64,000 bases of DNA from Dehalococcoidia bacterium (GCA_965214635.1 OZ243964.1:1299696-1363695), one strand, 5' to 3'; positions 5,559 through 53,197 are shown, counted from the stretch's first letter. Notes: generated by a model from the letters alone, not told the origin. A program made the numbers and translations.

Positions 5559-6137
5559 TTAGGGGTGAGCGTGACGCCGCTGTGCCTCGGGGTGTGTGGC
5601 GGCGTCGGTTGCGGGTGGGGCGTCATCGGCGTAGCCTTGCCCGTCCACAGCGGCGTCGGCAGTGGAGGTGGGGCGGCTGCGCCATAGTTCGGAGATGATA
5701 CGACGGCTTGTGGATGCGCCGAAACCCCGACGGCGCATATAGCCGAACAGCCGCCGTGTGAAAGTGTCATGGTCGGTGTTTGCGAGGCGGCGTGCATATG
5801 CGGCGGCGGCGCGGCGGGCGTTTTCTTCGTCGTCGAAGTCGCTGAGAGCAGCGTCAGCGATATGCGATGCGATGCCCTTGTTTAGCAGCTCGCGCTTGAT
5901 CATCCAAGCGCTGCGGGGCTTGCTGTTTTGGCGGCTGTGCACCCATAGTTCGGCGAAAGTGGCATCGTCTATGAGGCGGTCGGCGGCGAGCCGTCGGATT
6001 ACGCCATCAACCACATCCGGAGGATAGTCGCGGCGCAAGCGCATCCTGACCTCTGATTCGGTTCTAGGTCTGCGCGACAAGTATCTTATGGCGACGGCGC
6101 TTGCGCGCCTGCTCTGCTCGCTCTCTTCTTCTATCAT
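5559..6137 (-). CDS. recX: recombination regulator RecX
   Basis: 192 aa. Helical-repeat pattern AIRYLSRRPRTESEVRMRLRR...VIRRLAADRLIDDATFAELWV is typical of RecX. No recA upstream in the window. Confidence 0.8.
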   Translation of the reverse strand: MIEEESEQSRRASAVAIRYLSRRPRTESEVRMRLRRDYPPDVVDGVIRRLAADRLIDDATFAELWVHSRQNSKPRSAWMIKRELLNKGIASHIADAALSDFDDEENARRAAAAYARRLANTDHDTFTRRLFGYMRRRGFGASTSRRIISELWRSRPTSTADAAVDGQGYADDAPPATDAATHPEAQRRHAHP

Positions 6138-6518
6138 GTCAGGCTATTGGAAGTGTTGGGAACTCCCGTACGCTGCTGCTCGTGAGGTGTGTCTGCCAGT
6201 TCTCGCATGTTAGCGGGGTAGGTTAGCAAGGTAGACCGAGTGTGCGAGCATGCGGCGCGGCAACTATGGGTTGCGTCTCCAAATCATCGCGGAATGGCGT
6301 AATGTATTCTCCCACCCGTCAGGCATTAGTTTAGCAGGGGATGGCATATCCGTAAAGCGCAGGGCGGGTCTGTGCAGGGCGTTTCTGCTAAACAAAGCCT
6401 GCGTAGTTGCGAGAGCATCGGCAGGCTGTGCACAGCCTGTACAGCGCACATTTATGCCACCCTTCCTGTCAACATTGCAGGCTGTTTCGCGATAGCATAC
6501 ACTATCCGCATATCCGTT

Positions 6519-21768: not shown

Positions 21769-22866
21769 ATGAAAATCACCGATGCGACGATGGAGATATA
21801 CCGCTGGGATAGGCCCGTGCCGATTCGCAACGGGCGATACACTTATCCCACGGTGGCGCTGAACCTCATCAGGCTGGAGACGGACGAGGGTATCACGGGC
21901 TACGGGTATATGGGCGGGGAGCATGTGTCCGATGAGCTTAACATGGGCGTGTTCGGCAACATGAAGCAGTTCGTCATCGGGCAAGATCCGTTCGACAACG
22001 AACGCCTGTGGGAAGAGATGTGGCAGCCCAAGCTCGTGGGACGGCGCGGCTTGTCCACCCGTGCGATTAGCGGCATAGACATCGCCCTGTGGGACATCAA
22101 GGGCAAGGCGGCGGGCGTGTCCGTCCACAAGCTGCTCGGCGCTTTCACCGACAAGATACCCGTGTACATCGCCGGCGGCTATTACGAAGAGGGCAAGGGG
22201 CTGCGTGAGCTTGCGGCTGAGATGGAGACCGCTGTGGAGATGGGGTCGCGCGCTGTGAAGATGAAGATAGGCGGTGCGCCCATCAACGAGGATGTGGAGC
22301 GCATCCGCGCGGTTCGCGATGCCATAGGCTCGGATGTGAAGCTGCTGATGGACGCCAATTGCGCTTACCGCTACTATGAAGCCATTGAGCTTGCGCGCAA
22401 GGCGGAGCGCTACGATGTCTACTGGTTCGAAGAGCCGGTGAACCCCGACGACTACGAAGGGCATCGCCTCATCAGCCGTGCCACCAGCATCCCCATAGCC
22501 ACGGGCGAAAACGAGTACACGCGCTACGGCTTTCGCGACCTAATAAACAACCGCTGCGCCGCCATCATCCAGCCTGATGCGCTCATCATGGGCGGCGTAA
22601 CGGAGTTCGTGAAGGTTGCGGCGATGGCGTCCGCCCACGACCTGCCCATAGCGCCGCACGGCAAGCAAGAGGTGCACATCCACCTTGCGGCGGCAATCCC
22701 CAATGGTCTGATATTGGAGTACTACGCCGCCGCATTCGACCCGATGTACGGCAAAGTATTCGACGAGCCGCTAGAGGTGTCGGGTGGGTATGTGCATGCG
22801 CCCGCCCGTCCCGGCTTCGGTTTCACGCCGAACTTTGCAGCGCTTGCGCCGCACCGGGTTGCGTAG
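21769..22866 (+). CDS. enolase-superfamily enzyme, mandelate racemase/muconate lactonizing family
   Basis: 365 aa, RBS AGGAG. KxK motif (AVKMKIGG) and metal-ligand blocks LMDANCAY, WFEEP, ATGENEY. Confidence 0.85.
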   Translation: MKITDATMEIYRWDRPVPIRNGRYTYPTVALNLIRLETDEGITGYGYMGGEHVSDELNMGVFGNMKQFVIGQDPFDNERLWEEMWQPKLVGRRGLSTRAISGIDIALWDIKGKAAGVSVHKLLGAFTDKIPVYIAGGYYEEGKGLRELAAEMETAVEMGSRAVKMKIGGAPINEDVERIRAVRDAIGSDVKLLMDANCAYRYYEAIELARKAERYDVYWFEEPVNPDDYEGHRLISRATSIPIATGENEYTRYGFRDLINNRCAAIIQPDALIMGGVTEFVKVAAMASAHDLPIAPHGKQEVHIHLAAAIPNGLILEYYAAAFDPMYGKVFDEPLEVSGGYVHAPARPGFGFTPNFAALAPHRVA

Positions 22867-22873
22867 CTTCGCA

Positions 22874-22927
22874 GGAATGGCGCTGCCGCCTATTGAGAAC
22901 AGCGCCATTCCCGCAAAAATCGGGAAT
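22874..22927. terminator. two overlapping strong hairpins between convergent genes (terminator-like, no U-tract)
   Basis: GGAATGGCGCTG (22874-22885) pairs with CAGCGCCATTCC (22900-22911): 12-bp perfect stem, 14-nt loop. Overlapping it, ATTCCCG (22907-22913) pairs with CGGGAAT (22921-22927). Lies between the enolase-superfamily stop (22866) and the rplY stop (22964). Confidence 0.4.
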
Positions 22928-27429: not shown

Positions 27430-27453
27430 GTTTGAGTCAGCGTTTGAGTCAGC
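27430..27453. repeat. perfect 12-bp tandem direct repeat (GTTTGAGTCAGC x2) upstream of res
   Basis: Read directly: GTTTGAGTCAGC at 27430-27441 and again at 27442-27453. Each unit contains GAGTC (a GANTC site). Lies 54-77 nt upstream of the res ATG at 27507. Confidence 0.9.
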
Positions 27454-27506
27454 ATCAAACAGAAATCAGGCAAACGCAAGCAATCCCCCAACCACTCGGA
27501 GTAACC

Positions 27507-30491
27507 ATGACGCCTACGAAACTAGTCAGCCCAATCATCAACCGTCCCTATGCCCCGCCAGAGTGGCACTGGCAGCGCCATACCGATGGCCGCATCGCCG
27601 ACGCTCCGCAGCAATCGGGGCGTTACCCAGCCACAGGCGAATTACCCACCGCCGTGAAGGGGCTAGACCTGCAGGCACGCAACCCTAGGCAACCAATGGG
27701 CGACATGACCGACATGCTGCCCCATCTGGCGCTGGTGAACGACATCCGCGCGGAAGTCTCCGTATGGCAGAGCCAAGCCTACCCCGGCGCAACTCGCGTT
27801 TCCCGCGAACTCATAGGGCATTGGCTCAACCCCGACAGGGGCGGCCTCTACTTTGCCCAGAAGGAAGCCATATTGACCGCCATTTGGCTGGGCGAAATTG
27901 CCCCACGAACACAGGCAGGCAATGGCATCCTCAGAGAGCTGGACGAGATTAACGGTGTCATCAACGACGGCATCCCCCGCATCTGCCATCAGATGGCAAC
28001 CGGAACCGGCAAAACCGCCGTCATCGCCGCCATCATCCTTTGGCAGACCTGCAACCATCGGGAATACCCGGAAGACCGGCGCTTCACCAACCGCTTCCTC
28101 GCCATTACGCCGGGCATCACGGTGCAGGAACGGCTGGAAGCCGGCCTCCAGTACATGAAACACGGCAAGCCCGACCAGACCACCGAATACCTCAACCCCC
28201 ACCTGCACTTGGTGCCGCCGCAGTACGAATCCACCCTGCGCCACATTCGGCTCAAGGTGGTCAACTATCACAAGTTCATTCCGAAAGACCCAGACGGGCA
28301 GATGCCGACACGAGCCAAAACCCTTGCCCGCAAAGCCGATAACATCGAGACAGAACAGCAGGTGCTTGACCGCGTGCTCGGGCAGGACGCCAAGCCTATG
28401 GTGGTTTTCAACGATGAAGCGCACCACTGCCACCAAGGGGCGCCCGGCGCCAAGCGCAGCGCTAAGGCAAGCAAAAGCAAGTTCGTCTGGTTCAGCGCCT
28501 TGCGGATGCTCAGAGACCACGCCCTGATACACGGCACAGTGCGCGACCTGTCCGCCACGCCGTCGTTCATCGATGTGCGCGGCGCGCCCCTTTTCCCGTG
28601 GATAGTCTCTCAGTACGGCTTGCAGGAAGCAGAAGAAGCCGGCATCGTCAAGATCATGCGTCTGCCCGACACCGAGAACCGACCCGACGAATGGGACGAC
28701 GACCTGACCCGCAGCATCTATGCCCATACCAAAGACGGCAAGAACCTGACCCGCGAAGACGACGCCAGCAGCAACAAAGACCTGAAAATCGCCTTGAAGA
28801 TGATGTTTCTGAACTGGCAGGCGGTGCGGCAAAACGACAATTGGCAGCAGCGAAATGTTCCGCCCGTGTTGGCAATCATCGTCAACAACATCAAGAATGC
28901 CAACCGTGCATTCGACTACATCGCCGGCTGGGAGCACGACGAAACCCTCTACCCCGGTCGGCTCGGCAACGAACTGTCCAACATCGATGTGAACGCCAAC
29001 GAATACCATCAGCACCCGCGCACCATCTTGGTGCACTCTCGGTTGGAAAACCCCGACGCCAGCGAAACTGGCGAATCGCAGCAATACCTGAAACGGCAAG
29101 CCGCAACATATCGCAGCCTGTATCCCAACGCCGTAACTGCTGGCAATGTGTCGTTTCCGCAAGCGTCGGACAAGGATGTGCTCCGTACGGTGCTGAACAC
29201 CGTGGGCAAAGCCGGACAGCCCGGCGAGCGAGTTCGCTGCGTGGTGTCCGTGGGGATGCTCACCGAAGGCTGGGACGCCCGCACCGTTACCCATGTCTTG
29301 GGCTTCCGCAGGTTCGGCACTCAGCTAATCTGCGAGCAAGTATCCGGGCGCGCCCTGCGCCGCGTCGCATATGATACCGACGAAGAGGGATACCTGTATC
29401 CCGAGTACGCCGACATACTCGGCATTCCCTTCGACAGCCTTGGGCGGCGTGGGCGAGCCGCTCCACCAATCACACCGCCACCACCGCCGCCGCACTACGA
29501 TGTGCACATCGTGGACGAGCGCTCAGACTTGAAAATCCGCTGGCCCAATGTTACGAACTATCGCCGGCCGCAAGGCAAGAACCCGCTGTCGCTGCAGCCG
29601 CCGCGCGACTGGGCTGGCGTGCCAGCATACGAAGCGCCCGACCACGAACGGGCTGAGCGCGTCCGCACTGCACCCGGCGCACCTGCCGGCGAGCAAAACC
29701 CGCTTTACGAACATCCCGCCACTCGGCAGGAGTTCCAGTACCTAGTCACCAAGTTCGCCGTCGACAAACTCACACAAGTCGACCGCGATGATGCCACGCT
29801 CAGTCGGGGACGCCTGTTCCAGCAGGCGCTTGCCATAATCCAAGAGGCCATCAGGCAAGGCAAGCTAACGGGCCCAGACCGCGATGACCGCTGGCCCAAC
29901 CGCCACACCCACGAACCCACCCGCGCCGCACAATGGCTGCTACAATACGCCGATGTTACCGTCGAAGGCGATGCAGCCAACACGGTGGTTGCCGAGAATG
30001 GCGAACCCGTATGGCTAGATTCCCGTCGGCTGCAGCCATACCAGAGCAACCGCGCCTACAAGCACGAAACCCGCAAGTCGGAGACCAACATCGCCGTTTG
30101 CGACTCCGACTGGGAGGTCGCCGTCGCCGAAACGCTCGACCGCCACCCGTCCGTCAAACGCTGGATTCGGAATGAGCGGCTGGGCTGGACAATCCCTTAC
30201 CGCCACGACGGGATGCCCCGCAACTACGAACCCGATTTCATCGCCGTGGCAGCGCTGCCGTCAGGGGGCGACCTTAACATCGTCATCGAGGTCAAAGGGC
30301 TGACGCGCGAAACCGACGCAAGCAAGCAAATCTGGACGACGCAATACTGGCTGCCAGCGGTGAATGCGCATCCCGAGTACGCCCACGCAGGCACATGGGC
30401 GTACCTGTATGTTGACCAAATGCCGACCGAAAACTATGTTATTGATGCCCTTACCAACATCATCCTGCAACACGATCCGGAGCGGGAGTAA
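27507..30491 (+). CDS. Type III-like restriction enzyme Res subunit (SF2 DEAH helicase + C-terminal PD-(D/E)xK nuclease)
   Basis: Track ORF 27432..30491, trimmed to ATG 27507 (GGAG 6 nt upstream). Helicase motifs: I MATGTGKT, II FNDEAHH, III LSATPSF, V-VI MLTEGWDARTV...QVSGRALRR. Pro-rich linker PPITPPPPPPH. Nuclease motif YEPDFIAV...NIVIEVKG. Confidence 0.9.
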   Translation: MTPTKLVSPIINRPYAPPEWHWQRHTDGRIADAPQQSGRYPATGELPTAVKGLDLQARNPRQPMGDMTDMLPHLALVNDIRAEVSVWQSQAYPGATRVSRELIGHWLNPDRGGLYFAQKEAILTAIWLGEIAPRTQAGNGILRELDEINGVINDGIPRICHQMATGTGKTAVIAAIILWQTCNHREYPEDRRFTNRFLAITPGITVQERLEAGLQYMKHGKPDQTTEYLNPHLHLVPPQYESTLRHIRLKVVNYHKFIPKDPDGQMPTRAKTLARKADNIETEQQVLDRVLGQDAKPMVVFNDEAHHCHQGAPGAKRSAKASKSKFVWFSALRMLRDHALIHGTVRDLSATPSFIDVRGAPLFPWIVSQYGLQEAEEAGIVKIMRLPDTENRPDEWDDDLTRSIYAHTKDGKNLTREDDASSNKDLKIALKMMFLNWQAVRQNDNWQQRNVPPVLAIIVNNIKNANRAFDYIAGWEHDETLYPGRLGNELSNIDVNANEYHQHPRTILVHSRLENPDASETGESQQYLKRQAATYRSLYPNAVTAGNVSFPQASDKDVLRTVLNTVGKAGQPGERVRCVVSVGMLTEGWDARTVTHVLGFRRFGTQLICEQVSGRALRRVAYDTDEEGYLYPEYADILGIPFDSLGRRGRAAPPITPPPPPPHYDVHIVDERSDLKIRWPNVTNYRRPQGKNPLSLQPPRDWAGVPAYEAPDHERAERVRTAPGAPAGEQNPLYEHPATRQEFQYLVTKFAVDKLTQVDRDDATLSRGRLFQQALAIIQEAIRQGKLTGPDRDDRWPNRHTHEPTRAAQWLLQYADVTVEGDAANTVVAENGEPVWLDSRRLQPYQSNRAYKHETRKSETNIAVCDSDWEVAVAETLDRHPSVKRWIRNERLGWTIPYRHDGMPRNYEPDFIAVAALPSGGDLNIVIEVKGLTRETDASKQIWTTQYWLPAVNAHPEYAHAGTWAYLYVDQMPTENYVIDALTNIILQHDPERE

Positions 30492-30530
30492 AGCGCGGGA
30501 ACAAAGACCACGAACACAGAGGCACCACAG

Positions 30531-33272
30531 ATGGCACACTCGGAAAACCGACCACTAGACCAGTACAGCTACGACAGCGCCTCACGCGTCTCGCTAGCGA
30601 CGCAAGAAACTGGGTTGAACTTGCCTGACGAGCAGCTGGCCGAAACAGAGTATCAGATGCCCAAAGTGCAATCCAACTATCCCATTCTGCAATGGCGCCG
30701 CAGCCCGGACGCAGATGCGGGACGCTACGGCAGGCTGTTCATCCACGACAAGGTGTCTCCGGCAGAGTTCATGTCCAGCCTGCTCAAAGACCGCGAGGCT
30801 GCGCAGGCGAACTGGTTTCAGGATTTCAACAACCTGCCAGAGGGCGCACACTACGAACCCTACCTGCACGATAGCGGCAACTGGTCAAACCGTCTCATCA
30901 AGAGCACCGGACAGCGTGGCATGGCGTCCTTGCTGAACGACGAAGCCATGGCCGGGCAGGTCGACCTCATCTACATGGACCCGCCCTACAACATCAACTT
31001 CCGCTCCAACTTCCAAGGGATGATTGGCGACACCAACACCGGAGAGCGCTGGCAAGACATCCCCGCCGATGTGCGGCAGGTCAAGGCGTTCCGCGATTCC
31101 TACCGCGACGGAGTGCACTCTTACCTTGACCAGCTGCGCGTGCAACTGACGCACGGCAGAGAATTGCTCAAAGACAGCGGCAGTTTCGTAATGCAAATCG
31201 GGCCCGACAACCTGCACTACATCGCCGTGATGATGAGCGAGATATTTGGACACGAAAACCATGTGGCAACAATCCCGTACCGAACCGCAACCAACCCGAG
31301 CACTCGCCTGCTGCCTGAAATCGGAAACTGGCTGATATGGTACGCCAAAGACAAGGGAAGCATCAAATACCGCCAACTGTACACCCCTACTAGCAGCCGA
31401 CAAGACATCATGGATCTGTGGAGAGACCGTGTAAGGTATGAAGCACCATCCGGAGAAATCCGAACCCTCACCAGCGACGAGAAACGCAACCCGATGAATA
31501 TACCTGAGGCGGGCAAGTTGCTTATGACCTACCCGTGCCACTCAAGCCATGTGAGCAACACCGGACGCAGCGACGACTTCTACCATCATCCAAACGGGAA
31601 GCCGTGTCCCGAGCATGCCGAAGACTGGGAAAAGCACACATGCAGCAGCCAGTGCCATGCCGCTGAAAGAGAGAATTTGTCCAAACCGAACGGCACTCGT
31701 GCCTGCCCAAGGGGCCGCAGGTGCGGGTCCTTGTGTCGCGCCAATGGCTACCCGTGCCCGGCGGGTAGCCATTGGCGTGTAAGCCTGAAAGGCTTACACG
31801 CCATTGGAATGCAGGGAAGGCTGAGCATAGGCAGAAACGGGGGCATCCAATGGAAACAGTACGAAGATGAGGTCCCCGGCAGAACACTGAGCGCCGTCTG
31901 GGAAGGTGGCGGGAGAATAGTCGACAAGCGCTACATCGTGGAGACGCCGCCGACGGTGCTCCAACGCGTCTTGCTGATGACCACGGATCCGGGAGATCTG
32001 GTGCTCGACCCCACTGCGGGTTCTGGGGCGATGCCGCTGATGGCAGAGCGCTGGGGCAGACGCTGGATAGCCATTGACTCGTCCGCAGTCTCCGTTGCCA
32101 TCGCCCGCGAGCGCATCGCCACCGCAATCCACCCGTATCACATGCTGAAAGACTCGCCGACCGGACACCGCCGCGACCATGAGCTATACCAAGATCTGCT
32201 GCCGTCTGAGCAGCGCACCAAGTTCACGCCAAAGTCAGCGTATAGCCACGACCCGGCGCAAGGCTTCGTGCTGCAAAGGCAGCGGCGCGTATCAGCCGCT
32301 ACGCTGGCATACGGCTTCGACAACGAACCGCTAATCTACCATCCCGACCGCGCCGAGCCGGAATCTAGCAAGCGGCGCGTTAGCTCAGCCTTCACGGTGG
32401 AATCAGACCTGCCATTCAGCGCGATGCAGCCCAACTACGCCGATGCGCGCAACGGCATCGACGCAGACGGTCTGATAACGCTGCGCAACATGGAAGAGGC
32501 TCTGCTGACCAGCGGCATCAAGATATACAGCGACGATGGGAAGTCCGCCAAAACTTACCGCGTGTCTGACTTGGAATCCACAGTGGAGATCCCCGATGTC
32601 ACCCACACCGGGCGTATCATCGGCGAAGACGGCGACGCCAAAGAGGCGGTGTTCTACATCTGCCGCGAAGATGAGGTGGCGGGGCAATTCCAGACGCGCA
32701 ACCTAGCGGCAGCGGCGCGCAATCGGCGCACACCCTACGCCTGCGTCGTGGGCTTCGGGCACGAGGGCGACACCGGCTCAATGGAACGGTCGCAAGGCAC
32801 AGTAACCATCCTGAAAGTGCGGGCGAACCGCGACCTGATGATCCCCGGGCTTGAGCACAAGAGGGACGATGATGCGTTCGTGGTAATCAGCGAACCTGAC
32901 TTGATCATCCACGACGAACCCGACGACAAAATGAGCATCGAGGTTCGTGGGCTGACCACCTACAACCCTGCCACCGGTCAGGTGGAGCCTACGGGCGATC
33001 GGCGCATCGCGGCAATCATGACCGACACCTCATACGACCAAGAATCCTTCAAGGTTTGCCTGCTGAACTTGACATTGCAGGGGCAGAAGTCAGAGCGGCG
33101 TCTGAAGCAAATCCGCGACACTTTCCGCAGAGAGATTGACGATGCCAAGTGGAAGCGAATGCGCAGCAAGCGCACCCTAGCGTTTGACCCACCATCTGCG
33201 GGCGGCAAGATAGCCGTAAAGGTCATCGACCATACCGGCGTGGAGCACATGAAAGTGCTGGACATGCGGTAG
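30531..33272 (+). CDS. Type III-like Mod DNA methyltransferase (N4/N6 beta-class) with Cys/His-rich insert and long C-terminal extension
   Basis: 913 aa. Motif IV DLIYMDPPYN sits in the N-terminal part. Motif I VLDPTAGSGAMPLMAERWGRRWIAIDSS lies about 340 aa later, giving beta-class order with a central TRD. 8 of the 11 Cys fall in residues about 336-409. About 380 aa beyond motif I carry no motif I recognise. Confidence 0.9.
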   Translation: MAHSENRPLDQYSYDSASRVSLATQETGLNLPDEQLAETEYQMPKVQSNYPILQWRRSPDADAGRYGRLFIHDKVSPAEFMSSLLKDREAAQANWFQDFNNLPEGAHYEPYLHDSGNWSNRLIKSTGQRGMASLLNDEAMAGQVDLIYMDPPYNINFRSNFQGMIGDTNTGERWQDIPADVRQVKAFRDSYRDGVHSYLDQLRVQLTHGRELLKDSGSFVMQIGPDNLHYIAVMMSEIFGHENHVATIPYRTATNPSTRLLPEIGNWLIWYAKDKGSIKYRQLYTPTSSRQDIMDLWRDRVRYEAPSGEIRTLTSDEKRNPMNIPEAGKLLMTYPCHSSHVSNTGRSDDFYHHPNGKPCPEHAEDWEKHTCSSQCHAAERENLSKPNGTRACPRGRRCGSLCRANGYPCPAGSHWRVSLKGLHAIGMQGRLSIGRNGGIQWKQYEDEVPGRTLSAVWEGGGRIVDKRYIVETPPTVLQRVLLMTTDPGDLVLDPTAGSGAMPLMAERWGRRWIAIDSSAVSVAIARERIATAIHPYHMLKDSPTGHRRDHELYQDLLPSEQRTKFTPKSAYSHDPAQGFVLQRQRRVSAATLAYGFDNEPLIYHPDRAEPESSKRRVSSAFTVESDLPFSAMQPNYADARNGIDADGLITLRNMEEALLTSGIKIYSDDGKSAKTYRVSDLESTVEIPDVTHTGRIIGEDGDAKEAVFYICREDEVAGQFQTRNLAAAARNRRTPYACVVGFGHEGDTGSMERSQGTVTILKVRANRDLMIPGLEHKRDDDAFVVISEPDLIIHDEPDDKMSIEVRGLTTYNPATGQVEPTGDRRIAAIMTDTSYDQESFKVCLLNLTLQGQKSERRLKQIRDTFRREIDDAKWKRMRSKRTLAFDPPSAGGKIAVKVIDHTGVEHMKVLDMR
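31737..31853. repeat. cluster of three abutting hairpins / four CCAWTGG motifs inside the mod CDS
   Basis: Hairpin 1: 31741-31754 CCAATGGCTACCCG pairs with 31762-31775 CGGGTAGCCATTGG (14 bp perfect, 16 bp with the flanking CG). Hairpin 2: 31776-31785 CGTGTAAGCC pairs with 31791-31800 GGCTTACACG (10 bp, loop TGAAA). Hairpin 3: 31801-31812 CCATTGGAATGC pairs with 31843-31853 GCAT-CCAATGG (11 bp, 1 bulge). CCAWTGG occurs at 31741, 31769, 31801 and 31847. Confidence 0.85.
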
Positions 33273-33369
33273 GCGAAACGCCTCGACAGGCTTGACGGGG
33301 AGGGCGAACGCCTCGCCTGTGCGCTTCAGGCATAGGCAAAGCGACACAGTCGGTGTCAGAACAGGCTCA

Positions 33370-35805
33370 TCAGGTCAGCGATACCGGGTCAACATCCACG
33401 CTCCAGCCCTGTGGCAAGGTTACCCTGTCCAGCAGCGTGCGCGGATTTGCGCCCCGCAGCACGATGTGCCAGCGATAGCGCCCGCGTAGGCGCGCCGGGA
33501 ACGCCGGCATCGCCCCCAGCACATCGGTATCCGCATCGCCCCACGCTTGCTGCTGAAACCGAAGTTCTGCCGCAAGCCCTTGCGCCTCTTCCTCGCACAG
33601 GGCGCGGTTGGTGTGCGCAAACAGCAGCCGAATCAGCCTGCTGAACGGCGGGTTGCGATGCTGTCGCCGCTGCGCTATCTCTTGCGCATAGAACGCTTGG
33701 TAATCCTGCGCCGCCGCCGCTTGTATGGCATAGTGGTCGGGCTGGAAGGTCTGCACGATTACTTTGCCCTTCGCCTCGCCGCGCCCGGCGCGCCCTGCCA
33801 CTTGGTACAGCAGTTGAAACGCCCGCTCGCTCGCCCGGTAATCCGGGATGCTCAAGCCCACATCGGCGGACACAACGCCCACCAGCGTTACCGACGGGAA
33901 GTGTAGCCCCTTCGCTATCATCTGCGTGCCGACAAGCAGCTTCGCCTCGCCGGAGCGGAACCGATGCAGCAAAGCTTCGTGCGCCTTCGGGCTTGACGCC
34001 ATATCCCTGTCCCAGCGCAGCACGCCCGCGTCTGGATACTGGTTCGCCAGCTCATGCGCCACTGACTCGGTGCCTATGCCGAAGTAGCGCAAGCGGTAGG
34101 TGCCGCAGCGCTGGCACATCTCGGGCGGACGCCGCCGCCTGCCGCAGTAGTGGCAGATGAAGCGCCTAGATTCCTGATGGAATGTCATATTGACATCGCA
34201 ACTGCCGCACTTCAGCCCGTATCCGCAATGGGCGCACAGTAGCAACGATGCAGTGCCGCGTCGGTTGATGAACAGCATCGCCTGTTCGCCCGCCGCTACG
34301 CACTCATCCAGAGACGAGCGCAGCGCGCGGCTGAACATGTGGCTGCCCCCCTCTATCAGCTCAAGGCGCATATCCACCACATCCACACCGGGCAGCCCAC
34401 TGCCGCCGCTCCCGCTATCGCCGTGATGTTCGGCGTATCTGCGGCGCAGTCGGCGCAGCCGATGCCGCTTGCTCAGCCCGTTGGCGTATGTCCCCACATC
34501 CGGCGATGCGCTGCCCAGCACGAGGACTGCGCCCGTTCGCTCCGATATGCGCAGCGCCACGCTGCGGGCGTGGTATCGCGGCGTGGCGTCATTCTGCTTG
34601 TATGTCCATTCGTGTTCCTCGTCCATCACGATTAGCCCTAGCTCGGGTTGGGGAGCGAACACCGCGCTGCGCGAGCCGATGACCACGCCGTATTCGCCGC
34701 GCCGTATCTTCCACCACTGGTCGAACCGCTCTCCGTCCGACAGCCCGCTGTGAAGCACGCCCACCTGCCCGGGGAAGCGCGCCGCAAACCGCTCGATAGT
34801 CTGATATGTGAGGGCGATTTCGGGGACGAGGATGATGGCGCGCCTGCCTATGCGCAGGCAGTGCTGCACGGCATCGAGGTAAAGCTCGGTCTTGCCGCTG
34901 CCGGTTACGCCCTGTATCACGAATGCGCGGCGGGGCGTGCTTGACGCATCTAGCGCGGAACGGATGTCAGCGGCGGCGGATGCCTGTTCGTGGGTGAGGG
35001 TCGGCGGCTCGGCATGGTCGAACGCCCGTCCGTCCAGCGGGTCGCGCTCTATGCGTGTGGTGTGCATAACGAGCCAGCCCTTGTCTAGCAGCGCCTTCAC
35101 TGCGCCCGCCCCGAACTGCTTGCGCGCATGGGCAGCGTCCATTGCGTCGACACACCGCATATGCTCCAGCAGAGCGTACTGTTTGGGTGCGCGCTTTTCG
35201 ACTGATTGCAACCACTCGTCCACCGCATCCGTTGCGTCCGTTGACACGCTCACCATAGCGCGGTACTTGTGCCGCACGGACGGGGCGTCCAGCGTATACT
35301 CCCGCCGGACGATGCCCTTATTCACGAGCGCCGATATGGATGCGCCGATGTTCCCGCCGACCGCACGGGTCAGCCGTTCCTGACGCGCCACGCCGCGCTT
35401 CGCGATGTACTCTGCTACCCGTTGCTGTAAGGGAGTCAGCGTTTCGGGGTCAAAGGAATCGTCGGCAAGCGCTAGGTAGGTCTTGGGTCGGACGCGCCCG
35501 CCGGGTGGCAGCATAGGTGCGGCGGCTTCGAACAGCGAGCAGATGTAGCGCTCACCAATCCACTCTGCTAGTTCGAGTTGTGCGGCGTCCAGCAGCGGCT
35601 CGTCGAACACGGCGGCGTCTATGTCCCGTGTGCGCTCCACTTGCGGCGTATCTGCTAGCCGCATCACCAGCCCCTGCATCTTGCGTCGCCCAAACGGAAC
35701 GGCAACCAGCTGCCCGGCTCGTATGCGCAGCGTATCGGGGATGGCGTAGCTAAAAGTCTGCCCAACGCCCGTTGGCACATCCACCGCAACTTCTGCGTAT
35801 CTCAT
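33370..35805 (-). CDS. priA: primosomal protein N' (replication restart helicase)
   Basis: 811 aa. Walker A GVTGSGKTE, Walker B IVMDEEHE, and a Cys-rich zinc region CAHCGYGLKCGSCDVNMTFH...CHYCG...CQRCG. Confidence 0.95.
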   Translation of the reverse strand: MRYAEVAVDVPTGVGQTFSYAIPDTLRIRAGQLVAVPFGRRKMQGLVMRLADTPQVERTRDIDAAVFDEPLLDAAQLELAEWIGERYICSLFEAAAPMLPPGGRVRPKTYLALADDSFDPETLTPLQQRVAEYIAKRGVARQERLTRAVGGNIGASISALVNKGIVRREYTLDAPSVRHKYRAMVSVSTDATDAVDEWLQSVEKRAPKQYALLEHMRCVDAMDAAHARKQFGAGAVKALLDKGWLVMHTTRIERDPLDGRAFDHAEPPTLTHEQASAAADIRSALDASSTPRRAFVIQGVTGSGKTELYLDAVQHCLRIGRRAIILVPEIALTYQTIERFAARFPGQVGVLHSGLSDGERFDQWWKIRRGEYGVVIGSRSAVFAPQPELGLIVMDEEHEWTYKQNDATPRYHARSVALRISERTGAVLVLGSASPDVGTYANGLSKRHRLRRLRRRYAEHHGDSGSGGSGLPGVDVVDMRLELIEGGSHMFSRALRSSLDECVAAGEQAMLFINRRGTASLLLCAHCGYGLKCGSCDVNMTFHQESRRFICHYCGRRRRPPEMCQRCGTYRLRYFGIGTESVAHELANQYPDAGVLRWDRDMASSPKAHEALLHRFRSGEAKLLVGTQMIAKGLHFPSVTLVGVVSADVGLSIPDYRASERAFQLLYQVAGRAGRGEAKGKVIVQTFQPDHYAIQAAAAQDYQAFYAQEIAQRRQHRNPPFSRLIRLLFAHTNRALCEEEAQGLAAELRFQQQAWGDADTDVLGAMPAFPARLRGRYRWHIVLRGANPRTLLDRVTLPQGWSVDVDPVSLT

Positions 35806-44949: not shown

Positions 44950-46323
44950 CTAGTCCGCAGCGGCGTGTGCTGGCGTCCGCAATTCGGCTTGCCTCGCCGC
45001 AAGGGCGGCGTTCAGGATGCGGCGCTCGGATGCCTCCGTCTCTGGGGAGAAGCGCACGACGAACACTAGCGCGGCGGATAGGATGACCGCTGCGCCTATG
45101 AACAGCAGTCCCTCTTGGTAGCTGATGCTCTCGGCGCGGAAGAGGAAGCCGAACGCCACAGCGCCTGCGTTCCCGCCCGCTCCCACGATGCCCGCCACCG
45201 AGCCGAGCACGCGCCGATTGATGAACGGCACTACTGAGTAGGTTGCGCCCTCGGACATCTGCACGAACAGGCTGAATGCTATCATCGCGCCCACGGCGAG
45301 CCACAAGACTGCCATCTGCGAAAACACGATGAGCGCTATCCCCTCGATGAACAGCACCACGCCGAGAAACATCACGCGCCCCTTCAAGCCGAACTTGATG
45401 CCGAACTTGTCGCTGAGGATGCCACCCATCGTGCGGGCGAATATGTTCATCACACCGAACAGCCCTGCTATCAGCCCTGCTGTGGCGAGGCTTAGATCGA
45501 AGCGGTCGAAGTAGTAGAGCGCCGCGATGTTGTTGATGGTCAGTTCCACGCCGAAGCATGCGCCGTAGATGATGAACAGCGCCCACACGCGATAGTCTCT
45601 GACGGCTGTGAGGAACGCGCCGCGTACCTGTGGTGCGGGCGGCATCAGTCCCTTCGCGCGCAGGTCTTTGTAGTTGCCGTCGGGCGCGTCCTGTGTCAGG
45701 AAGAAGTATGCGATGCCCACGAGGAAGAGCGCAACGCCCGGCACAACCATCGCTAGGCGCCACCCGACGACCTCGCTGACACCGAGCATCAGCACCCCAG
45801 CGAACACCAGCGGCATCGCCATCTGCGTTACGCCGCCGCCTAGGTTGCCCCAGCCTGCGGTTGTGGCGTTTGCTGTGCCTATCACATTGGGTGCGAACAT
45901 TACAGAGGTGTGGTACTGCGTGATGACGAACGATGCCCCGATGACGCCAATGGCGAGACGGAACAGCAGGAATGTCTCGTAGGATTGCGCCAAGCCGATG
46001 CACATAACCGGAATGGAGCCTAACATCAGCAGGGCGCTGTATGCGATGCGTGGGCCTACTCGGTCGCAAAGCCAGCCGATGACGATGCGCGCGACGATGG
46101 TTATCGCCACCGACGCTATGATGGTGTTGCCGACTTGCGCCTTAGTGAGCAGCAGGTCTTCGCGCACTACTGCCATGAGCGGAGCTATCCCGAACCAGCC
46201 GAAGAACGCGAGGAAGAAGGCGAACCATGTGAGATGGAACGCTCGCATCTGCGGTGTCCTGAAACTGAACAGGCTAATGCGAGTAGCCTTGCTGCTCTCT
46301 TTGCCGTTGACCGCTGCGCTCAT
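44950..46323 (-). CDS. narK: MFS nitrate/nitrite transporter (NNP family, NarK/NrtP)
   Basis: Track ORF 44950..46338 (GTG), trimmed to ATG 46323, which is preceded by GGAAGGA. MRAFHLTWFAFFLAFFGWFGIAPLM, plus 12-TM MFS architecture. Confidence 0.9.
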   Translation of the reverse strand: MSAAVNGKESSKATRISLFSFRTPQMRAFHLTWFAFFLAFFGWFGIAPLMAVVREDLLLTKAQVGNTIIASVAITIVARIVIGWLCDRVGPRIAYSALLMLGSIPVMCIGLAQSYETFLLFRLAIGVIGASFVITQYHTSVMFAPNVIGTANATTAGWGNLGGGVTQMAMPLVFAGVLMLGVSEVVGWRLAMVVPGVALFLVGIAYFFLTQDAPDGNYKDLRAKGLMPPAPQVRGAFLTAVRDYRVWALFIIYGACFGVELTINNIAALYYFDRFDLSLATAGLIAGLFGVMNIFARTMGGILSDKFGIKFGLKGRVMFLGVVLFIEGIALIVFSQMAVLWLAVGAMIAFSLFVQMSEGATYSVVPFINRRVLGSVAGIVGAGGNAGAVAFGFLFRAESISYQEGLLFIGAAVILSAALVFVVRFSPETEASERRILNAALAARQAELRTPAHAAAD

Positions 46324-52156: not shown

Positions 52157-53197
52157 ATGGCTGCAACGACATCGCACACGGCCGGGCAGTCCGCTGCTGG
52201 TATGGACCTGACCGACCGCAATATCTTGAACATCATACAGACGCGTTTCCCGCTCGTGGAGCGCCCCTATGCCGACATCGGGGCAGAGACGGGGCTGGAT
52301 GAAGACGAGGTTATCGCGCGCATTGGGGCGCTGAAAGATCGCAATGTGGTGCGCCAAATCAGCGCCATATTCGACACGCGCAGGCTCGGTTACAAGACCA
52401 CGCTCGTGGCAATGCGCTTTCCGGCAGAGCGCTTGGATGCTGCGGCGCAGATCATCAATGAGCATCCCGGCGTCAGCCACAACTACGCCCGCAACGGGAA
52501 TTTTAACCTGTGGTTCACGCTCGCCGTGCCGCCATACGAAGACCTAGCCGAATCCGTGGAACAGATGGCAGTGCGCACGCAAGCCGAAACCTACCGCCTG
52601 ATGCCCACTATCAAGTTCTTCAAGATAGGCGTGAACTTCGATATGGTCAAGGAAGAGGGGGCGGCGAGCAAATACTACAGCCCCGACGGATACGGCGACA
52701 GGAACGGCACGCAATGGAACAAGGCAGAGGCGCTGACAGATTTCGACATCGCCGTCATCCGCGAACTGCAAGAGGATGTGCCGCTGACGCCTCAGCCCTT
52801 CACGCCAATGGCAGAGCGGCTTGGCATCGCACTCGATGCGCTGTTCGATGCGGCAGATGCGCTCCGACAGCGCGGGCTAATGCGCCGTTTCAGCGCTGTG
52901 CTGCACCACCGCCGCGCCGGTTTTCGCTCTAACGCCATGGCGGTGTGGAAAGTGCCGTCCGAGCGCGCAGTGGAAGTGGGCAACCTCATGGCGCAGTCGC
53001 GCTGGGTTACACACTGCTACGAGCGTCCGACATTCCCGGACTGGCAGTACACGCACTTCACGATGATACACGCCACATCGCAAGATCAGTGCGAAGCCGT
53101 GGCGCAGGAACTCTCGGAGGCGACCGGCATAGACGAATACATGCTCTTGTACAGCACCCGCGAGTATAAGAAGACGCGCGTGCGGTATTTCGTGTAG
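52157..53197 (+). CDS. siroheme decarboxylase, fused AhbA/AhbB (NirDL-like) two-domain protein
   Basis: 346 aa, RBS GGGAGGG. Two tandem Lrp/AsnC-like halves, each with the characteristic block: half 1 ...RQISAIFDTRRLGY...HPGVSHNYAR, half 2 ...RRFSAVLHHRRAGF...SRWVTHCYER. Confidence 0.8.
   Translation: MAATTSHTAGQSAAGMDLTDRNILNIIQTRFPLVERPYADIGAETGLDEDEVIARIGALKDRNVVRQISAIFDTRRLGYKTTLVAMRFPAERLDAAAQIINEHPGVSHNYARNGNFNLWFTLAVPPYEDLAESVEQMAVRTQAETYRLMPTIKFFKIGVNFDMVKEEGAASKYYSPDGYGDRNGTQWNKAEALTDFDIAVIRELQEDVPLTPQPFTPMAERLGIALDALFDAADALRQRGLMRRFSAVLHHRRAGFRSNAMAVWKVPSERAVEVGNLMAQSRWVTHCYERPTFPDWQYTHFTMIHATSQDQCEAVAQELSEATGIDEYMLLYSTREYKKTRVRYFV

What the first reader, a model, noticed from the sequence alone, without database searches (positions are those of the whole stretch)
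31737..31853. Three abutting strong hairpins built from four CCAWTGG motifs, kept in-frame inside the Mod-like methyltransferase gene
Seen directly:
- Hairpin 1: CCAATGGCTACCCG (31741-31754) pairs perfectly with CGGGTAGCCATTGG (31762-31775). That is 14 bp with a 7-nt loop, and the flanking CG/CG extends it to 16 bp.
- Hairpin 2 abuts it: CGTGTAAGCC (31776-31785) pairs with GGCTTACACG (31791-31800). That is 10 bp with loop TGAAA, extendable to 17 bp with one mismatch through the neighbouring CCATTGG copies.
- Hairpin 3 abuts again: CCATTGGAATGC (31801-31812) pairs with GCAT-CCAATGG (31843-31853). That is 11 bp with one bulge and a ~30-nt loop.

The quasi-palindrome CCAWTGG occurs 4 times in 113 bp. 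Copies 1 and 4 are each complementary to copies 2 and 3, so mutually exclusive alternative folds exist.

Back-of-envelope: about 6.4e4 positions x ~20 loop lengths / 4^14 is roughly 0.005 expected perfect 14-bp short-loop inverted repeats in the window. By eye I found only scattered single CCAWTGG copies elsewhere, and no comparable structure inside any other CDS.

The ORF stays open through the element (..LCRANGYPCPAGSHWRVSLKGLHAIGMQGRLSIGRNGGIQWKQ..). It sits at the end of the Cys/His-rich part of the presumed target-recognition region.

Hypotheses (inference):
- An in-frame palindromic insertion, as is known for Rickettsia palindromic elements or REP/MITE-like repeats.
- A cis-acting RNA or DNA structure tuning Mod expression.
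- A clustered binding or self-recognition site for the R-M enzymes or a recombinase.
- An assembly artefact.
Basis: partly seen in the sequence, partly recalled or inferred. Interest (0 to 1): 0.7.

Follow-up and report, generated by a model that had tools for sequence, protein, structure and literature searches.

The report
Conserved double hairpin inside methyltransferase gene
Two back-to-back, almost perfect stem-loops are written into the protein-coding sequence of a restriction-modification methyltransferase gene; relatives from unrelated bacteria keep them through matched changes on both sides of each stem, so something other than the protein maintains them, though their job is still unknown.

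Summary
Hairpin 1 (16 bp perfect) and hairpin 2 (10 bp, 17 bp with one T·T mismatch) are the two strongest short-range inverted repeats in the 64-kb window. No simulation produced a stem of 14 bp or more.

This is not an insertion. Codons 404-426 encode a conserved core motif of a Type III-like Mod methyltransferase (consensus AxxYPCPxGxQWRVSxxGLHxIA).

Ten homologous genes from independent assemblies, at 44-76% protein identity, keep both hairpins with 21-24 of 24 Watson-Crick pairs. Six to eight stem positions show compensatory changes, several of which also change amino acids. Rare codons are used (TTA is 1% of Leu codons). Synonymous conservation is the highest in the gene.

The central CAWTGG(CG) segment can pair leftward or rightward, and both partners co-vary with it. 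Three clade members have lost the structure. Hairpin 3 and the "four CCAWTGG sites" idea are not conserved.

Other subfamilies carry differently built hairpins at the same Trp codon. No Rfam family or dispersed repeat matches.

Best reading: a maintained stem-loop element made by reverse-complement copying. It probably acts in the mod mRNA as a pause, processing or stability element. A self-perpetuating DNA quasipalindrome is nearly as likely.

The parts
27432..30491 (+). res-like gene (1019 aa): ResIII helicase, related to the BPTD_3080 family of restriction endonucleases. It lies upstream of mod, separated by a 39-nt gap.
   Evidence: Pfam ResIII, E = 3.8e-8. NCBIfam NF046055 scores 672 bits, below the 800-bit cut-off. 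The same res-then-mod order is seen in homologous loci.
30531..33272 (+). mod gene (913 aa): beta-class N6/N4 DNA methyltransferase, Type III Mod-like. DPPY lies at aa 150-153 and the DPTAGSG motif at aa 493-499. The variable TRD cassette spans about aa 283-465.
   Evidence: Pfam PF01555, E = 3.9e-22. PADLOC MTase_III, E = 1.6e-91. The N-terminal half matches EcoP15I Mod (4zcf) and the C-terminal motif region matches CcrM. Alignment A1. Segment identities.
31739..31777 (+). Hairpin 1. Arms are 31739-31754 and 31762-31777 (16 bp perfect), with loop 31755-31761 (TGCCCGG, the Cys409-Pro410 codons). It encodes (R)ANGYPCPAGSHW(R).
   Evidence: -34.5 kcal/mol. Conserved in 10 homologues, with compensatory changes at alignment columns 11/33, 12/32, 13/31, 14/30 and 8/36.
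31769..31807 (+). Hairpin 2. The core is 31776-31785 with 31791-31800 (10 bp perfect, loop TGAAA). The extended form is 17 bp (31769-31785 with 31791-31807) with one T·T mismatch. It encodes (S)HWRVSLKGLHAIG.
   Evidence: -29.1 kcal/mol. It is a perfect 17-18 bp stem in L081, L082 and L112. Compensatory changes occur at columns 33/71, 40/64 and 46/58.
31769..31777 (+). Shared junction segment CCATTGGCG (last base of the Ser413 codon, His414, Trp415, and the first two bases of Arg416). It can pair leftward with 31739-31747 (perfect in the window) or rightward with 31799-31807 (one T·T mismatch in the window).
   Evidence: Every hairpin-bearing homologue has a perfect partner on at least one side. 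Column 33 co-varies with both column 11 and column 71: G/C/G in the window and L112, C/G/C in eight others. At protein level the triples are G-S-G, A-[KRQ]-A and V-R-V.
31801..31853 (+). Hairpin 3 (CCATTGGAATGC ... GCAT-CCAATGG). It is specific to this window, weak, and not part of the conserved element.
   Evidence: z = -2.6. The 3' arm is absent from all 11 homologues examined.
31847..31853 (+). Fourth CCAATGG copy (Ile-Gln-Trp codons). It is a coincidental second Gln-Trp codon pair.
   Evidence: Homologues read ACGTGG, AGATTC, AGATGG and similar here.

Best explanation
SHOWN:
- Codons 404-426 of a Type III-like mod gene carry a maintained nucleic-acid structure: two abutting near-perfect stem-loops.
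- Their junction is the CAWTGG(CG) of the Gln/His-Trp-Arg codons, which can pair either leftward or rightward.
- It is not an insertion. It overlies a conserved protein motif.
- Only a clade of the family has it. There the arms change only in concert, even when that changes amino acids. Examples: N405/H414 versus I405/Q414; G406/S413/G426 versus A406/[KRQ]413/A426; R416/A424 versus S416/S424; Y407 to V in L082.

INFERRED ORIGIN:
- The conserved central Q/H-W-R-V-S coding segment was copied in reverse complement onto both flanks, by template switching.
- This recoded tolerant residues. The wider family reads G-x-x-[FYW]...G[LM][DE]R[LM]A; the hairpin clade reads A-N-[AG]-Y...GLH[AS]I[AG].

INFERRED MECHANISM (my preferred reading, not demonstrated):
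- The element works when single-stranded in the mod mRNA.
- A block of about -49 kcal/mol, rich in rare codons, sits directly after the variable recognition/zinc module.
- It slows or stalls ribosomes and/or offers a long coaxial double-stranded RNA stem for processing or exonuclease blocking. Either would set Mod output from the res-mod transcript.
- The same palindrome in replicating single-stranded DNA lets template-switch correction keep the arms perfectly Watson-Crick.
For: - Strength: hairpins 1 and 2 are the two strongest short-range inverted repeats in the window by perfect stem length. There are no stems of 14 bp or more in 60 simulations. The 69-nt element folds at -48.8 kcal/mol, z = -7.6.
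- Not an insertion: alignment A1 is gap-free here, and C409 and W415 are invariant.
- Conservation: 10 genes from independent assemblies, at 44-76% protein identity, keep 21-24 of 24 Watson-Crick pairs. Clade members that lost the structure have 11-12, and the wider subfamily has 1-12 (L002 is intermediate at 15). The distribution is bimodal.
- Covariation: 7-8 pairs changed on both sides, 0 of 500 shuffles reach the observed score, and slid controls drop to 25-43% paired. An independent RNAalifold consensus finds 6 compensatory pairs.
- Protein-level echo in 121 homologues: R416/A424 in 23, S416/S424 in 18, discordant in 7 (Fisher p = 1e-6). Triples at 406/413/426 are concordant in 28 of 35.
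- Synonymous constraint: codon identity is 0.79 at aa 403-425 against a gene mean of 0.52, the highest in the gene, and falls to 0.21-0.26 just after.
- Nucleotide identity of the block to the window is 0.75-0.86 even where the flanks are 0.55-0.61.
- Rare codons in the stems, as a share of their amino acid: TTA 1%, CGT 8%, GGT 8%, GGA 9%, GTA 11%, ATT 12%.
- It is the only structured peak in each gene.
- A covariance model hits only this site, and also recovers L002, which was not in the training set.
- Other subfamilies have differently built hairpins at the same Trp codon (L012/L050, L008/L054). This argues that position matters.
- Slight excess of sense-strand G·U over A·C mismatches (9-12 versus 4 with hand-counted additions, binomial p = 0.04-0.13).
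Against: - No experiment, transcript or expression data exist; function is inference.
- The stems are almost purely Watson-Crick with very few G·U pairs and no conserved loop. That fits a DNA palindrome kept perfect by template switching at least as well as a selected RNA helix.
- The G·U versus A·C asymmetry is not significant (4 versus 2 in strict bearers).
- There is no U-tract, no slippery heptamer, no nearby start codon or ribosome-binding site conserved with the element, and no Rfam match. No known RNA mechanism is therefore identified.
- Three clade members (L114, L116, L118) do without the structure, so it is dispensable for the enzyme.
- A roadblock inside mod would lower Mod relative to Res, which has no obvious benefit.
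- Only 10 bearer sequences were available, and they are phylogenetically related.
Confidence: 0.42

Rival explanations
1. Self-perpetuating DNA quasipalindrome with no function of its own. Template switching created the inverted copies. Afterwards, template-switch 'correction' in replication copies any change from one arm to the other, much faster than point mutation erodes the stem. Deletion, the usual fate of palindromes, is forbidden here because it would remove the invariant Cys409 and Trp415. The palindrome is therefore trapped in an essential coding segment and decays only after several mismatches accumulate or the cassette is swapped.
For: - Arms are nearly always perfectly Watson-Crick (21-24 of 24), and the distribution is bimodal: perfect or fully decayed.
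- Multi-base concerted changes occur, for example TAC/GTA to GTC/GAC in L082 with a radical Tyr-to-Val change.
- Arms are read in different frames.
- L008 and L054 carry frame-shifted duplicates of the Trp region plus extra perfect hairpins.
- The loop of hairpin 2 is TGAAA in the window and L113 but its reverse complement TTTCA in L117. This is a possible loop flip, typical of DNA hairpins.
- Both strands fold equally well (-48.8 and -46.0 kcal/mol).
- Template switching is documented to create and maintain perfect stems and to produce multi-base compensatory changes (PMC8794818).
Against: - Hairpins appear only at this one site in each gene, although the neighbouring hypervariable TRD would tolerate such scars far better.
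- At least three independently built architectures exist at the same codon, suggesting position-specific benefit.
- The element persists across lineages whose synonymous sites are otherwise saturated.
- There is a slight sense-strand G·U excess.
Confidence: 0.3
2. DNA-level functional element: a hairpin or cruciform-prone island of conserved sequence inside the variable recognition cassette. It stalls forks or attracts hairpin nucleases, and so acts as a recombination hotspot or crossover anchor for exchanging TRD (half-)cassettes between mod alleles.
For: - TRD identity is only 23-50% even between backbones that are 85-89% identical (L081 versus L116).
- Cluster mates P0121 and P0122 are about 97% identical to the window protein outside aa 283-464 but about 27% different inside it.
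- The N- and C-terminal pairwise identity matrices group the genes the same way, while TRD identities do not follow those groups.
- The hairpin block is the conserved nucleotide island inside that cassette.
- TRD movement by recombination at conserved motif-coding DNA is known for Type III mod genes (PMC3467074).
Against: - Homologous recombination needs sequence identity, not self-complementarity, so this does not explain compensatory maintenance of pairing.
- There is no partner element at the 5' side of the cassette.
- Cassette swaps can carry the block along (L116 lost it with its cassette), so it is not a fixed breakpoint.
- Selection for evolvability is second-order.
Confidence: 0.12
3. 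Clustered double-stranded DNA binding or self-recognition sites. The quasi-palindrome (CG)CCAWTGG(CG) would be a protein-binding site, or the system's own target, repeated four times.
For: Three near-identical copies of CGCCAWTGG lie 28 and 32 nt apart, with a fourth copy 46 nt further on. CGCCAWTGGCG with up to 1 mismatch gives 12 hits in the window against 4 expected.
Against: - The central copy is dictated by the Gln/His-Trp codons, and the others are its complements.
- In L113 and L117 the right copy is CCAGTG, and in L081 and L082 the central copy is GCAATGG.
- The fourth copy is absent from all homologues.
- The rest of the stems, which are outside the motif, co-vary just as well.
- CCAWTGG is not enriched window-wide.
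Confidence: 0.04
4. In-frame mobile palindromic element (RPE, REP or MITE-like) inserted into mod.
For: The palindromic anatomy fits. Related genes L008 and L054 do carry an in-frame insertion of about 25-30 codons made of perfect hairpins at this position.
Against: - There is no length difference from homologues.
- The peptide is a conserved family motif.
- No other copies occur in the window or in about 1 Mb of related loci.
- Metagenome matches to the 10-nt core are unrelated longer hairpins in other contexts.
Confidence: 0.03
5. Chance, a protein-driven by-product, or an assembly artefact.
For: Residual complementarity (11-12 of 24 pairs) persists in clade members without the hairpin, because the peptide motif is shared.
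Against: - No stems of 14 bp or more appear in 60 simulations.
- Rare codons are chosen to complete the pairing.
- Amino-acid-changing compensations occur.
- The element is present in 10 independent assemblies.
Confidence: 0.01

Closest known systems
Conserved RNA secondary structures embedded in coding sequence (for example frameshift-stimulating hairpins, intragenic processing or stability stem-loops, and regions of excess synonymous constraint as found by FRESCo-type scans)
   Same: It overlaps an ORF. It shows excess synonymous constraint, compensatory base-pair changes and strong thermodynamic stability.
   Different: There is no slippery site, U-tract, conserved loop or known partner signal. 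The stems are unusually long and perfect (16-18 bp), with hardly any G·U. The element has no Rfam match. The host is a restriction-modification mod gene, and I found no such case described.
Quasipalindromes created and corrected by replication template switching (Ripley-type mutations; Monttinen and Loytynoja 2022, PMC8794818)
   Same: It has perfect reverse-complement arms with short spacers and multi-base concerted changes. The arms ignore reading frame. Related genes have extra inverted or frame-shifted copies.
   Different: Here the palindrome sits on a conserved protein motif and has persisted across genes down to 44% protein identity. No ancestral reconstruction of a switch event was done.
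Rickettsia palindromic elements and REP/MITE in-frame insertions
   Same: Palindromic DNA is translated in frame inside a functional gene.
   Different: In this gene it is not an insertion, not dispersed, and its position is conserved among homologues. Only the L008/L054 subfamily resembles an insertion.
TRD (DNA-recognition-domain) exchange in Type III mod genes (H. pylori, Haemophilus and Neisseria modA; PMC3467074, PMC1557822, PMC3311624)
   Same: The backbone is conserved, the central cassette is hypervariable, and TRD similarity does not follow backbone similarity.
   Different: Those systems rely on ordinary sequence homology of the conserved flanks. No self-complementary element has been described in them. 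Here the gene order is res-then-mod and there is no simple-sequence repeat.
Attenuator-type alternative pairings (for example the trp leader)
   Same: A central segment containing a Trp codon can pair with either an upstream or a downstream partner, and both pairings are conserved.
   Different: It lies inside a 913-codon ORF. There is no terminator, no leader peptide and no tandem regulatory codons. The resemblance is formal only.

Membership tests
In-frame mobile palindromic element (RPE/REP/MITE) | Extra sequence relative to homologues that lack the element | tested here: not met
   The alignment with 32 homologues is gap-free across aa 404-426, and the motif is conserved.
In-frame mobile palindromic element (RPE/REP/MITE) | Multiple dispersed copies in the genome | tested here: not met
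   No other copy occurs in the 64-kb window at up to 3 mismatches. The covariance model finds no extra hit in about 1 Mb of window plus loci. The whole genome was not available.
Any Rfam family | Covariance-model match at or near the gathering score | tested here: not met
   The best hit over the element is aspS on the opposite strand: 22.8 bits against a 42.5-bit gathering score, E = 0.88.
Conserved cis-acting structured element (generic) | Base pairs kept through compensatory changes in homologues | tested here: met
   7-8 pairs with changes on both sides, 0 of 500 shuffles reaching the observed score, and slid controls at 25-43% paired. RNAalifold finds 6 compensatory pairs.
Conserved cis-acting structured element (generic) | Excess synonymous constraint over the element | tested here: met
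   Identical-codon fraction is 0.79 against a gene mean of 0.52, the top windows of the gene. Rare codons occur in the stems.
RNA-level (sense-strand) structure | Strand-specific tolerance of G·U but not A·C | tested here: inconclusive
   4 G·U against 2 A·C in strict bearers. The count is 9-12 against 4 when L002, L200 and loop-closing pairs are included, p = 0.04-0.13.
Programmed -1 frameshift stimulator | Slippery heptamer X XXY YYZ 5-9 nt upstream of the stem | tested here: not met
   The sequence upstream of either stem (GGGTCCTTGTGTCGCG; GCGGGTAGCCAT) has no slippery heptamer (read directly).
Intrinsic terminator or attenuator | Stem followed by a U-tract | tested here: not met
   No terminator-like site is called at 31739-31807 on either strand. 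The downstream sequence is CCATTGGAATGCAGGG.
Invertible or shufflon-type specificity switch (hsdS-like) | A second, silent copy of the repeat or TRD nearby, plus a recombinase | tested here: not met
   The arms have no other copy in the window. No recombinase gene lies next to res-mod in the window.
Template-switch quasipalindrome | Perfect reverse-complement repeat with a short spacer and multi-base concerted changes | tested here: met
   16-18 bp perfect arms with loops of 5-7 nt. L082 shows TAC/GTA changed to GTC/GAC. L008 and L054 carry frame-shifted duplicates.
Template-switch quasipalindrome | Ancestral reconstruction showing a single-event origin | not tested
   This needs dense sampling and a dedicated tool such as FPA. 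Only the contrast between outgroup motifs (G..[FYW]..GLDRLA) and clade motifs (ANGY..GLHAIG) was available.
Type III restriction-modification system (host operon) | Beta-class Mod methyltransferase (motif IV before motif I, with a central TRD) adjacent to a Res helicase-nuclease | tested here: met
   DPPY at aa 150 and DPTAGSG at aa 493. PF01555. PADLOC MTase_III E = 1.6e-91. EcoP15I Mod similarity. ResIII neighbour.
Type III restriction-modification system (host operon) | Canonical mod-then-res order and demonstrated ATP-dependent cleavage at inverted sites | tested here: not met
   The order is res-then-mod in the window and in all loci where the upstream gene is visible. The Res match to NCBIfam BPTD_3080 is below its cut-off (672 against 800 bits). 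Enzymology is not testable here.

The most novel reading that the evidence does not exclude
The double hairpin is a previously undescribed class of coding-embedded cis element, specific to a res-mod (Type III-like) defence family. It would be a structural switch whose central Trp-codon segment toggles between a left and a right helix. This switch would control either how much Mod is made from the res-mod transcript or where recognition-domain cassettes recombine. Selection for it would be strong enough to have rewritten conserved residues of the enzyme.
Probability: 0.35. Interest if true: 0.75.

Novelty: new variant of a known kind. Interest (0 to 1): 0.62.

Why it matters
Long, perfect, co-varying stem-loops overlaid on a conserved protein motif are rare in bacterial genes, and I found none described for restriction-modification genes.

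If the element is functional, it reveals a new layer of control, either of expression or of specificity-cassette exchange, in a widespread but uncharacterised res-mod defence family found in Chloroflexota-like, Acidimicrobiia and other uncultured lineages.

If it is a functionless, self-correcting palindrome trapped in an essential codon block, it is a clean natural example of template switching creating apparent 'compensatory evolution' and even driving amino-acid change. That matters for how covariation is read as proof of functional RNA.

Either way it is directly testable by synonymous recoding.

Tried and rejected
- Rfam E-value scan of 30400-33400: only chance-level hits.
Only L001, L002, L007, L008, L012, L050 and L054 were useful.
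- Metagenome-contig scan for the hairpin 2 core: 29 loci, none in a methyltransferase gene. They are other, longer hairpins sharing the 10-nt core.
- Viral contigs relatives: 41% identity or less and no structure at the site. Used as outgroup controls.
- Plasmid tblastn: only relatives at 38% identity or less.
- Looking up the window's own protein on contigs: not on record.
- Search for second copies of the arms, silent cassettes, or long-range complements in the operon: none. There is only an 11-nt repeat, CTACCCGTGCC, at 31529.
- Promoter and terminator scan: nothing at the element.
- Slippery sequence, conserved internal start codon, and complementarity to the ribosome-binding site: none.
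- G·U versus A·C asymmetry to decide between RNA and DNA: inconclusive.
- AlphaFold model of Mod: low overall confidence (pLDDT 57.6), so no fold search was run. The local region at aa 390-450 is better (about 80) and shows a strand at 405-407 and a helix at 419-427.
- Correlation of the hairpin with the Cys/His-rich module: none. L115 lacks the module but has the hairpins; L114 and L118 have the module but lack them.
- Literature searches found no description of such an element in R-M genes.

Full report
**1. Observation**

- Hairpin 1 pairs 31739-31754 with 31762-31777: 16 bp, 100% complementary, 7-nt loop.
- Hairpin 2 pairs 31776-31785 with 31791-31800. It extends to 31769-31786 with 31790-31807 (18 nt, 94%).
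- These two are repeats I3 and I1, the two strongest short-range inverted repeats of the whole 64-kb window by perfect stem length (ranks 3 and 1 by arm length).
- Folding energies as RNA:

| Segment | Free energy (kcal/mol) | z-score |
|---|---|---|
| Hairpin 1 alone | -34.5 | -6.7 |
| Extended hairpin 2 | -29.1 | -8.7 |
| 69-nt pair, sense strand | -48.8 | -7.6 |
| 69-nt pair, antisense strand | -46.0 | -7.8 |

- The 151-nt region has z = -4.9 as RNA and z = -5.8 as DNA.
- The window has two perfect stems of 14 bp or more with loops of 3-10 nt, both here. None appeared in 60 Markov simulations.
- CCAWTGG is not enriched window-wide (13 observed, 9.3 expected), but 4 of the 13 copies lie in this 113-bp stretch.
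- Hairpin 3 folds only weakly (z = -2.6).

**2. Gene context**

- ORF 30531-33272 (913 aa) is a beta-class N6/N4 DNA methyltransferase. It matches PF01555, has DPPY at aa 150-153 and DPTAGSG at aa 493-499, and resembles Type III Mod subunits (PADLOC MTase_III E = 1.6e-91; EcoP15I Mod 4zcf).
- A 1019-aa ResIII helicase related to the BPTD_3080 family of restriction endonucleases lies 39 nt upstream.
- The pair sits between eno and priA.
- The only named relatives of the enolase are Chloroflexi MAGs.
- Homologous res-mod pairs lie in defence or mobile contexts, next to SIR2, CBASS, Mrr, PD-(D/E)xK, TnpB and integrase genes.

**3. Not an insertion**

- Alignment with 32 homologues at 45-76% identity shows that aa 404-445 are a conserved island: consensus AxxYPCPxGxQWRVSxxGLHxIAxxGRM...WKRYEDExPGR, with C409 and W415 invariant.
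- There is no gap at the element.
- The variable Cys/His-rich module lies just upstream and is present or absent independently of the element.

**4. The structure is conserved in homologue DNA**

- I retrieved DNA for 13 clade genes from independent assemblies.
- Ten keep both hairpins: the window, L081, L082, L112, L113, L115, L117, L119, L001 and L200. They range down to 44-45% protein identity.
- They have 21-24 of 24 Watson-Crick pairs in the better of two alternative registers. L200, at 44% protein identity, is partly degraded (hand count; 73.4 bits against the model). L114, L116 and L118 have 11-12, and the wider subfamily has 1-12, with L002 intermediate at 15. The distribution is clearly bimodal.
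- In a scan of 156 homologous genes, only this clade plus L012 is unusually structured at the Trp415 codon. Clade z-scores are -2.5 to -6.6, and each such window is the most stable in its own gene.
- The wider family centres on z of about 0.
- It is the only consistently structured peak along the genes.

**5. Covariation**

- On a 12-sequence, gap-free, codon-anchored alignment, the left-extended structure has 84% of cells paired and 8 pairs changed on both sides.
- The right-extended structure has 87% paired and 7 such pairs.
- For both, 0 of 500 shuffles reach the observed paired percentage or covariation score. Sliding the partner by 1-3 columns drops pairing to 25-43%.
- RNAalifold independently predicts two helices with 6 compensatory pairs.
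- Many compensations change amino acids:

| Pairing | State 1 | State 2 |
|---|---|---|
| 405 / 414 | N405 (AAT) / H414 (CAT), window | I405 (ATT) / Q414 (CAA), L113 and L117 |
| 406 / 413 | G406 (GGC) / S413 (AGC) | A406 (GCT) / K413 (AAG), or A406 (GCC) / R413 (AGG) |
| 407 / 412-413 | Y407 (TAC) / GGT-A | V407 (GTC) / GGA-C, L082 |
| 416 / 424 | R416 (CGT) / A424 (GCC) | S416 (AGT) / S424 (TCC or TCT), L115, L117, L119 |

- L119 also recodes AGC-C/G-GC-TTA to TCC-C/G-GGA-ATA.
- The same couplings appear across 121 family proteins. R416/A424 occurs 23 times, S416/S424 18 times, and discordant combinations 7 times (Fisher p = 1e-6). Residues 406/413/426 form concordant triples in 28 of 35 signature proteins.

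**6. Two alternative pairings are both maintained**

- The junction segment (columns 33-41, CCAWTGGCG) pairs either with the 5' end of hairpin 1 or with the 3' flank of hairpin 2.
- Every bearer has a perfect partner on at least one side. It is on the left in the window, L113 and L117, and on the right in L081, L082, L112, L115 and L119.
- Column 33 co-varies with both its partners, columns 11 and 71. The state is G/C/G in the window and L112, and C/G/C in eight others.
- The window protein's close cluster mates P0121 and P0122 show G406V + S413R + G426V. Given the codons, this is most simply T/A/T. This step is inferred, since no DNA was available.

**7. Nucleotide-level constraint**

- Among the nine bearers analysed (L200 was retrieved later), identical-codon usage at shared residues peaks at 0.79 over aa 403-425. 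These are the top windows of the gene, against a gene mean of 0.52. It drops to 0.21-0.26 immediately downstream.
- Nucleotide identity of the block to the window is 0.75-0.86 in bearers whose flanks are only 0.55-0.61 identical. The loops differ freely.
- The stems use codons that are rare in this genome. As a share of their amino acid: TTA 1%, CGT 8%, GGT 8%, GGA 9%, GTA 11%, ATT 12%.

**8. What is not conserved**

- The 3' arm of hairpin 3 and the fourth CCAATGG copy are absent from all homologues. They come from a second, coincidental Gln-Trp codon pair.
- The CCAWTGG 'motif' is the Gln/His-Trp codon pair plus its complements. In some bearers the copies read GCAATGG or CCAGTG.

**9. Origin (inference)**

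- The wider family reads [DNE]G.x[FYW].C...W[RS]VS..G[LM][DE]R[LM]A. The hairpin clade reads A-N-[AG]-Y-P-C...W[RS]VS..G-L-H-[AS]-I-[AG].
- Both outer arms are therefore recoded to complement the conserved central segment. Reverse-complement copying, that is template switching, would do exactly this.
- That process is documented to create perfect stems and multi-base compensatory changes (PMC8794818).
- Other subfamilies carry differently built hairpins at the same codon:
  - L012 and L050 have an 11-bp palindrome centred on CAWTGG with three compensations.
  - L008 and L054 have an in-frame insertion after WRVS composed of two to three perfect 10-11-bp hairpins. It includes a duplicate of the Trp region read in another frame (DTRQWRVS against ETRANGVF).

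**10. What it is not**

- No Rfam family matches.
- It is not dispersed. The arms have no other copy in the window, and a covariance model built from the bearers hits only this site in mod genes across about 1 Mb. That model also recovers L002, which was not used to build it.
- Exact matches to the 10-nt core of hairpin 2 in JGI metagenomes are unrelated, longer hairpins.
- There is no terminator U-tract, slippery heptamer, conserved internal start, silent cassette or recombinase.

**11. Mechanism**

- The firm conclusion, at about 0.85 confidence, is that a self-complementary element is actively maintained on top of the coding sequence.
- Whether it acts as RNA or DNA is unresolved.
  - For an mRNA role: position specificity with several architectures, a single site per gene, a rare-codon-rich -49 kcal/mol block just after the recognition module, and a slight sense-strand G·U excess (9-12 against 4, p = 0.04-0.13).
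  - For a DNA palindrome: almost exclusively Watson-Crick stems, perfect-or-decayed bimodality, frame-blind duplications, equal stability of both strands, and a possible loop flip (TGAAA against TTTCA).
- I rank an mRNA pause, processing or stability element first (0.42). A functionless, self-correcting quasipalindrome trapped in an essential codon block comes second (0.30). A recombination anchor for TRD-cassette exchange comes third (0.12).
- The third has a background in known TRD movement in Type III mod genes (PMC3467074). It also fits the strong cassette exchange seen here: TRD identity is 23-50% between backbones that are 85-89% identical, and P0121/P0122 differ from the window protein mostly within aa 283-464.

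**12. Verdict**

- This is an undescribed, clade-specific, co-varying double hairpin embedded in a restriction-modification methyltransferase gene.
- It is a new variant of a known kind, and its function is open but directly testable.

Noticed in passing
L083-L111 (JGI metagenome contigs): The 10-nt core of hairpin 2 (CGTGTAAGCC / GGCTTACACG) is also the centre of longer hairpins in unrelated contexts. Examples: a soil family tctgtgtaag-CGTGTAAGCC-N7-GGCTTACACG-cttacacaga located just after stop codons (about 12 loci); ccaaagac-CGTGTAAGCC...GGCTTACACG-gtctttg (4 loci); and tatttggt..gc-CGTGTAAGCC-cgatc.g-GGCTTACACG-gc (4 or more loci). They are possibly REP- or terminator-like families.
   Followed up: partly
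L008 about 6100-6260; L054 about 5950-6110; L007 about 6100-6240: Acidimicrobiia-type homologues have an in-frame insertion of about 20-30 codons between WRVS and GLDRLA. In L008 and L054 it is built from two or three perfect 10-11-bp hairpins and contains a duplicate of the Trp-codon region read in a different frame. L007 has only an imperfect hairpin 2-like stem and no perfect stem of 8 bp or more.
   Followed up: partly
L012 and L050, at the Trp415-equivalent codon: A different architecture occurs here: an 11-bp perfect palindrome centred on CAWTGG (CGATACCCTCC-AAT-GGAGGGTATCG against TGACACACTCC-ATT-GGAGTGTGTCA), with three compensatory differences. The peptide pattern STLQWRVD in P0004, P0006, P0008 and P0027 suggests more members.
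   Followed up: partly
window 31786-31790 versus L117 and L113: The hairpin 2 loop is TGAAA in the window and L113, but its exact reverse complement TTTCA in L117. This could be a loop inversion between the arms, as is known for DNA hairpins. It is a single case and could be chance.
   Followed up: no
window 31529-31539 and 31748-31758: The 11-nt direct repeat CTACCCGTGCC encodes Tyr-Pro-Cys twice (TYPCH at aa 333-337 and GYPCP at aa 406-410). The two copies bracket the Cys/His-rich module.
   Followed up: no
window 31530-31740 (aa about 335-402): A Cys/His-rich, zinc-finger-like module in the recognition region is present, absent or expanded among otherwise close homologues, independently of the hairpins.
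   Followed up: partly
mod aa 283-464; proteins P0121 and P0122: Cluster mates of the window protein are about 97% identical outside aa 283-464 but about 27% different inside it. TRD identity is 23-50% between backbones that are 85-89% identical. Recognition cassettes are therefore being exchanged in this family.
   Followed up: partly
L081, L082, L112, L113, L115, L117, L119 flanks: The res-mod pairs of this family sit in defence or mobile islands. Neighbours include SIR2_2 (L081), CBASS SMODS plus Cap17-like (L113), Mrr (L119), PD-(D/E)xK (L112), an integrase (L115) and DDE transposases. A TnpB gene follows mod in three loci (L082, L115, L117). The gene order is always res then mod.
   Followed up: no
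window 22868-22917: An 18-nt, 89% inverted repeat with a 14-nt spacer starts right after ORF 21769-22866. It is probably a terminator.
   Followed up: no
window 45945-45955 and 52803-52813: Isolated copies of CGCCAATGGCG and CGCCAATGGCA occur elsewhere in the window. CGCCAWTGGCG with up to 1 mismatch gives 12 hits against 4 expected, and only 1 of 100 shuffles reached 12.
   Followed up: no
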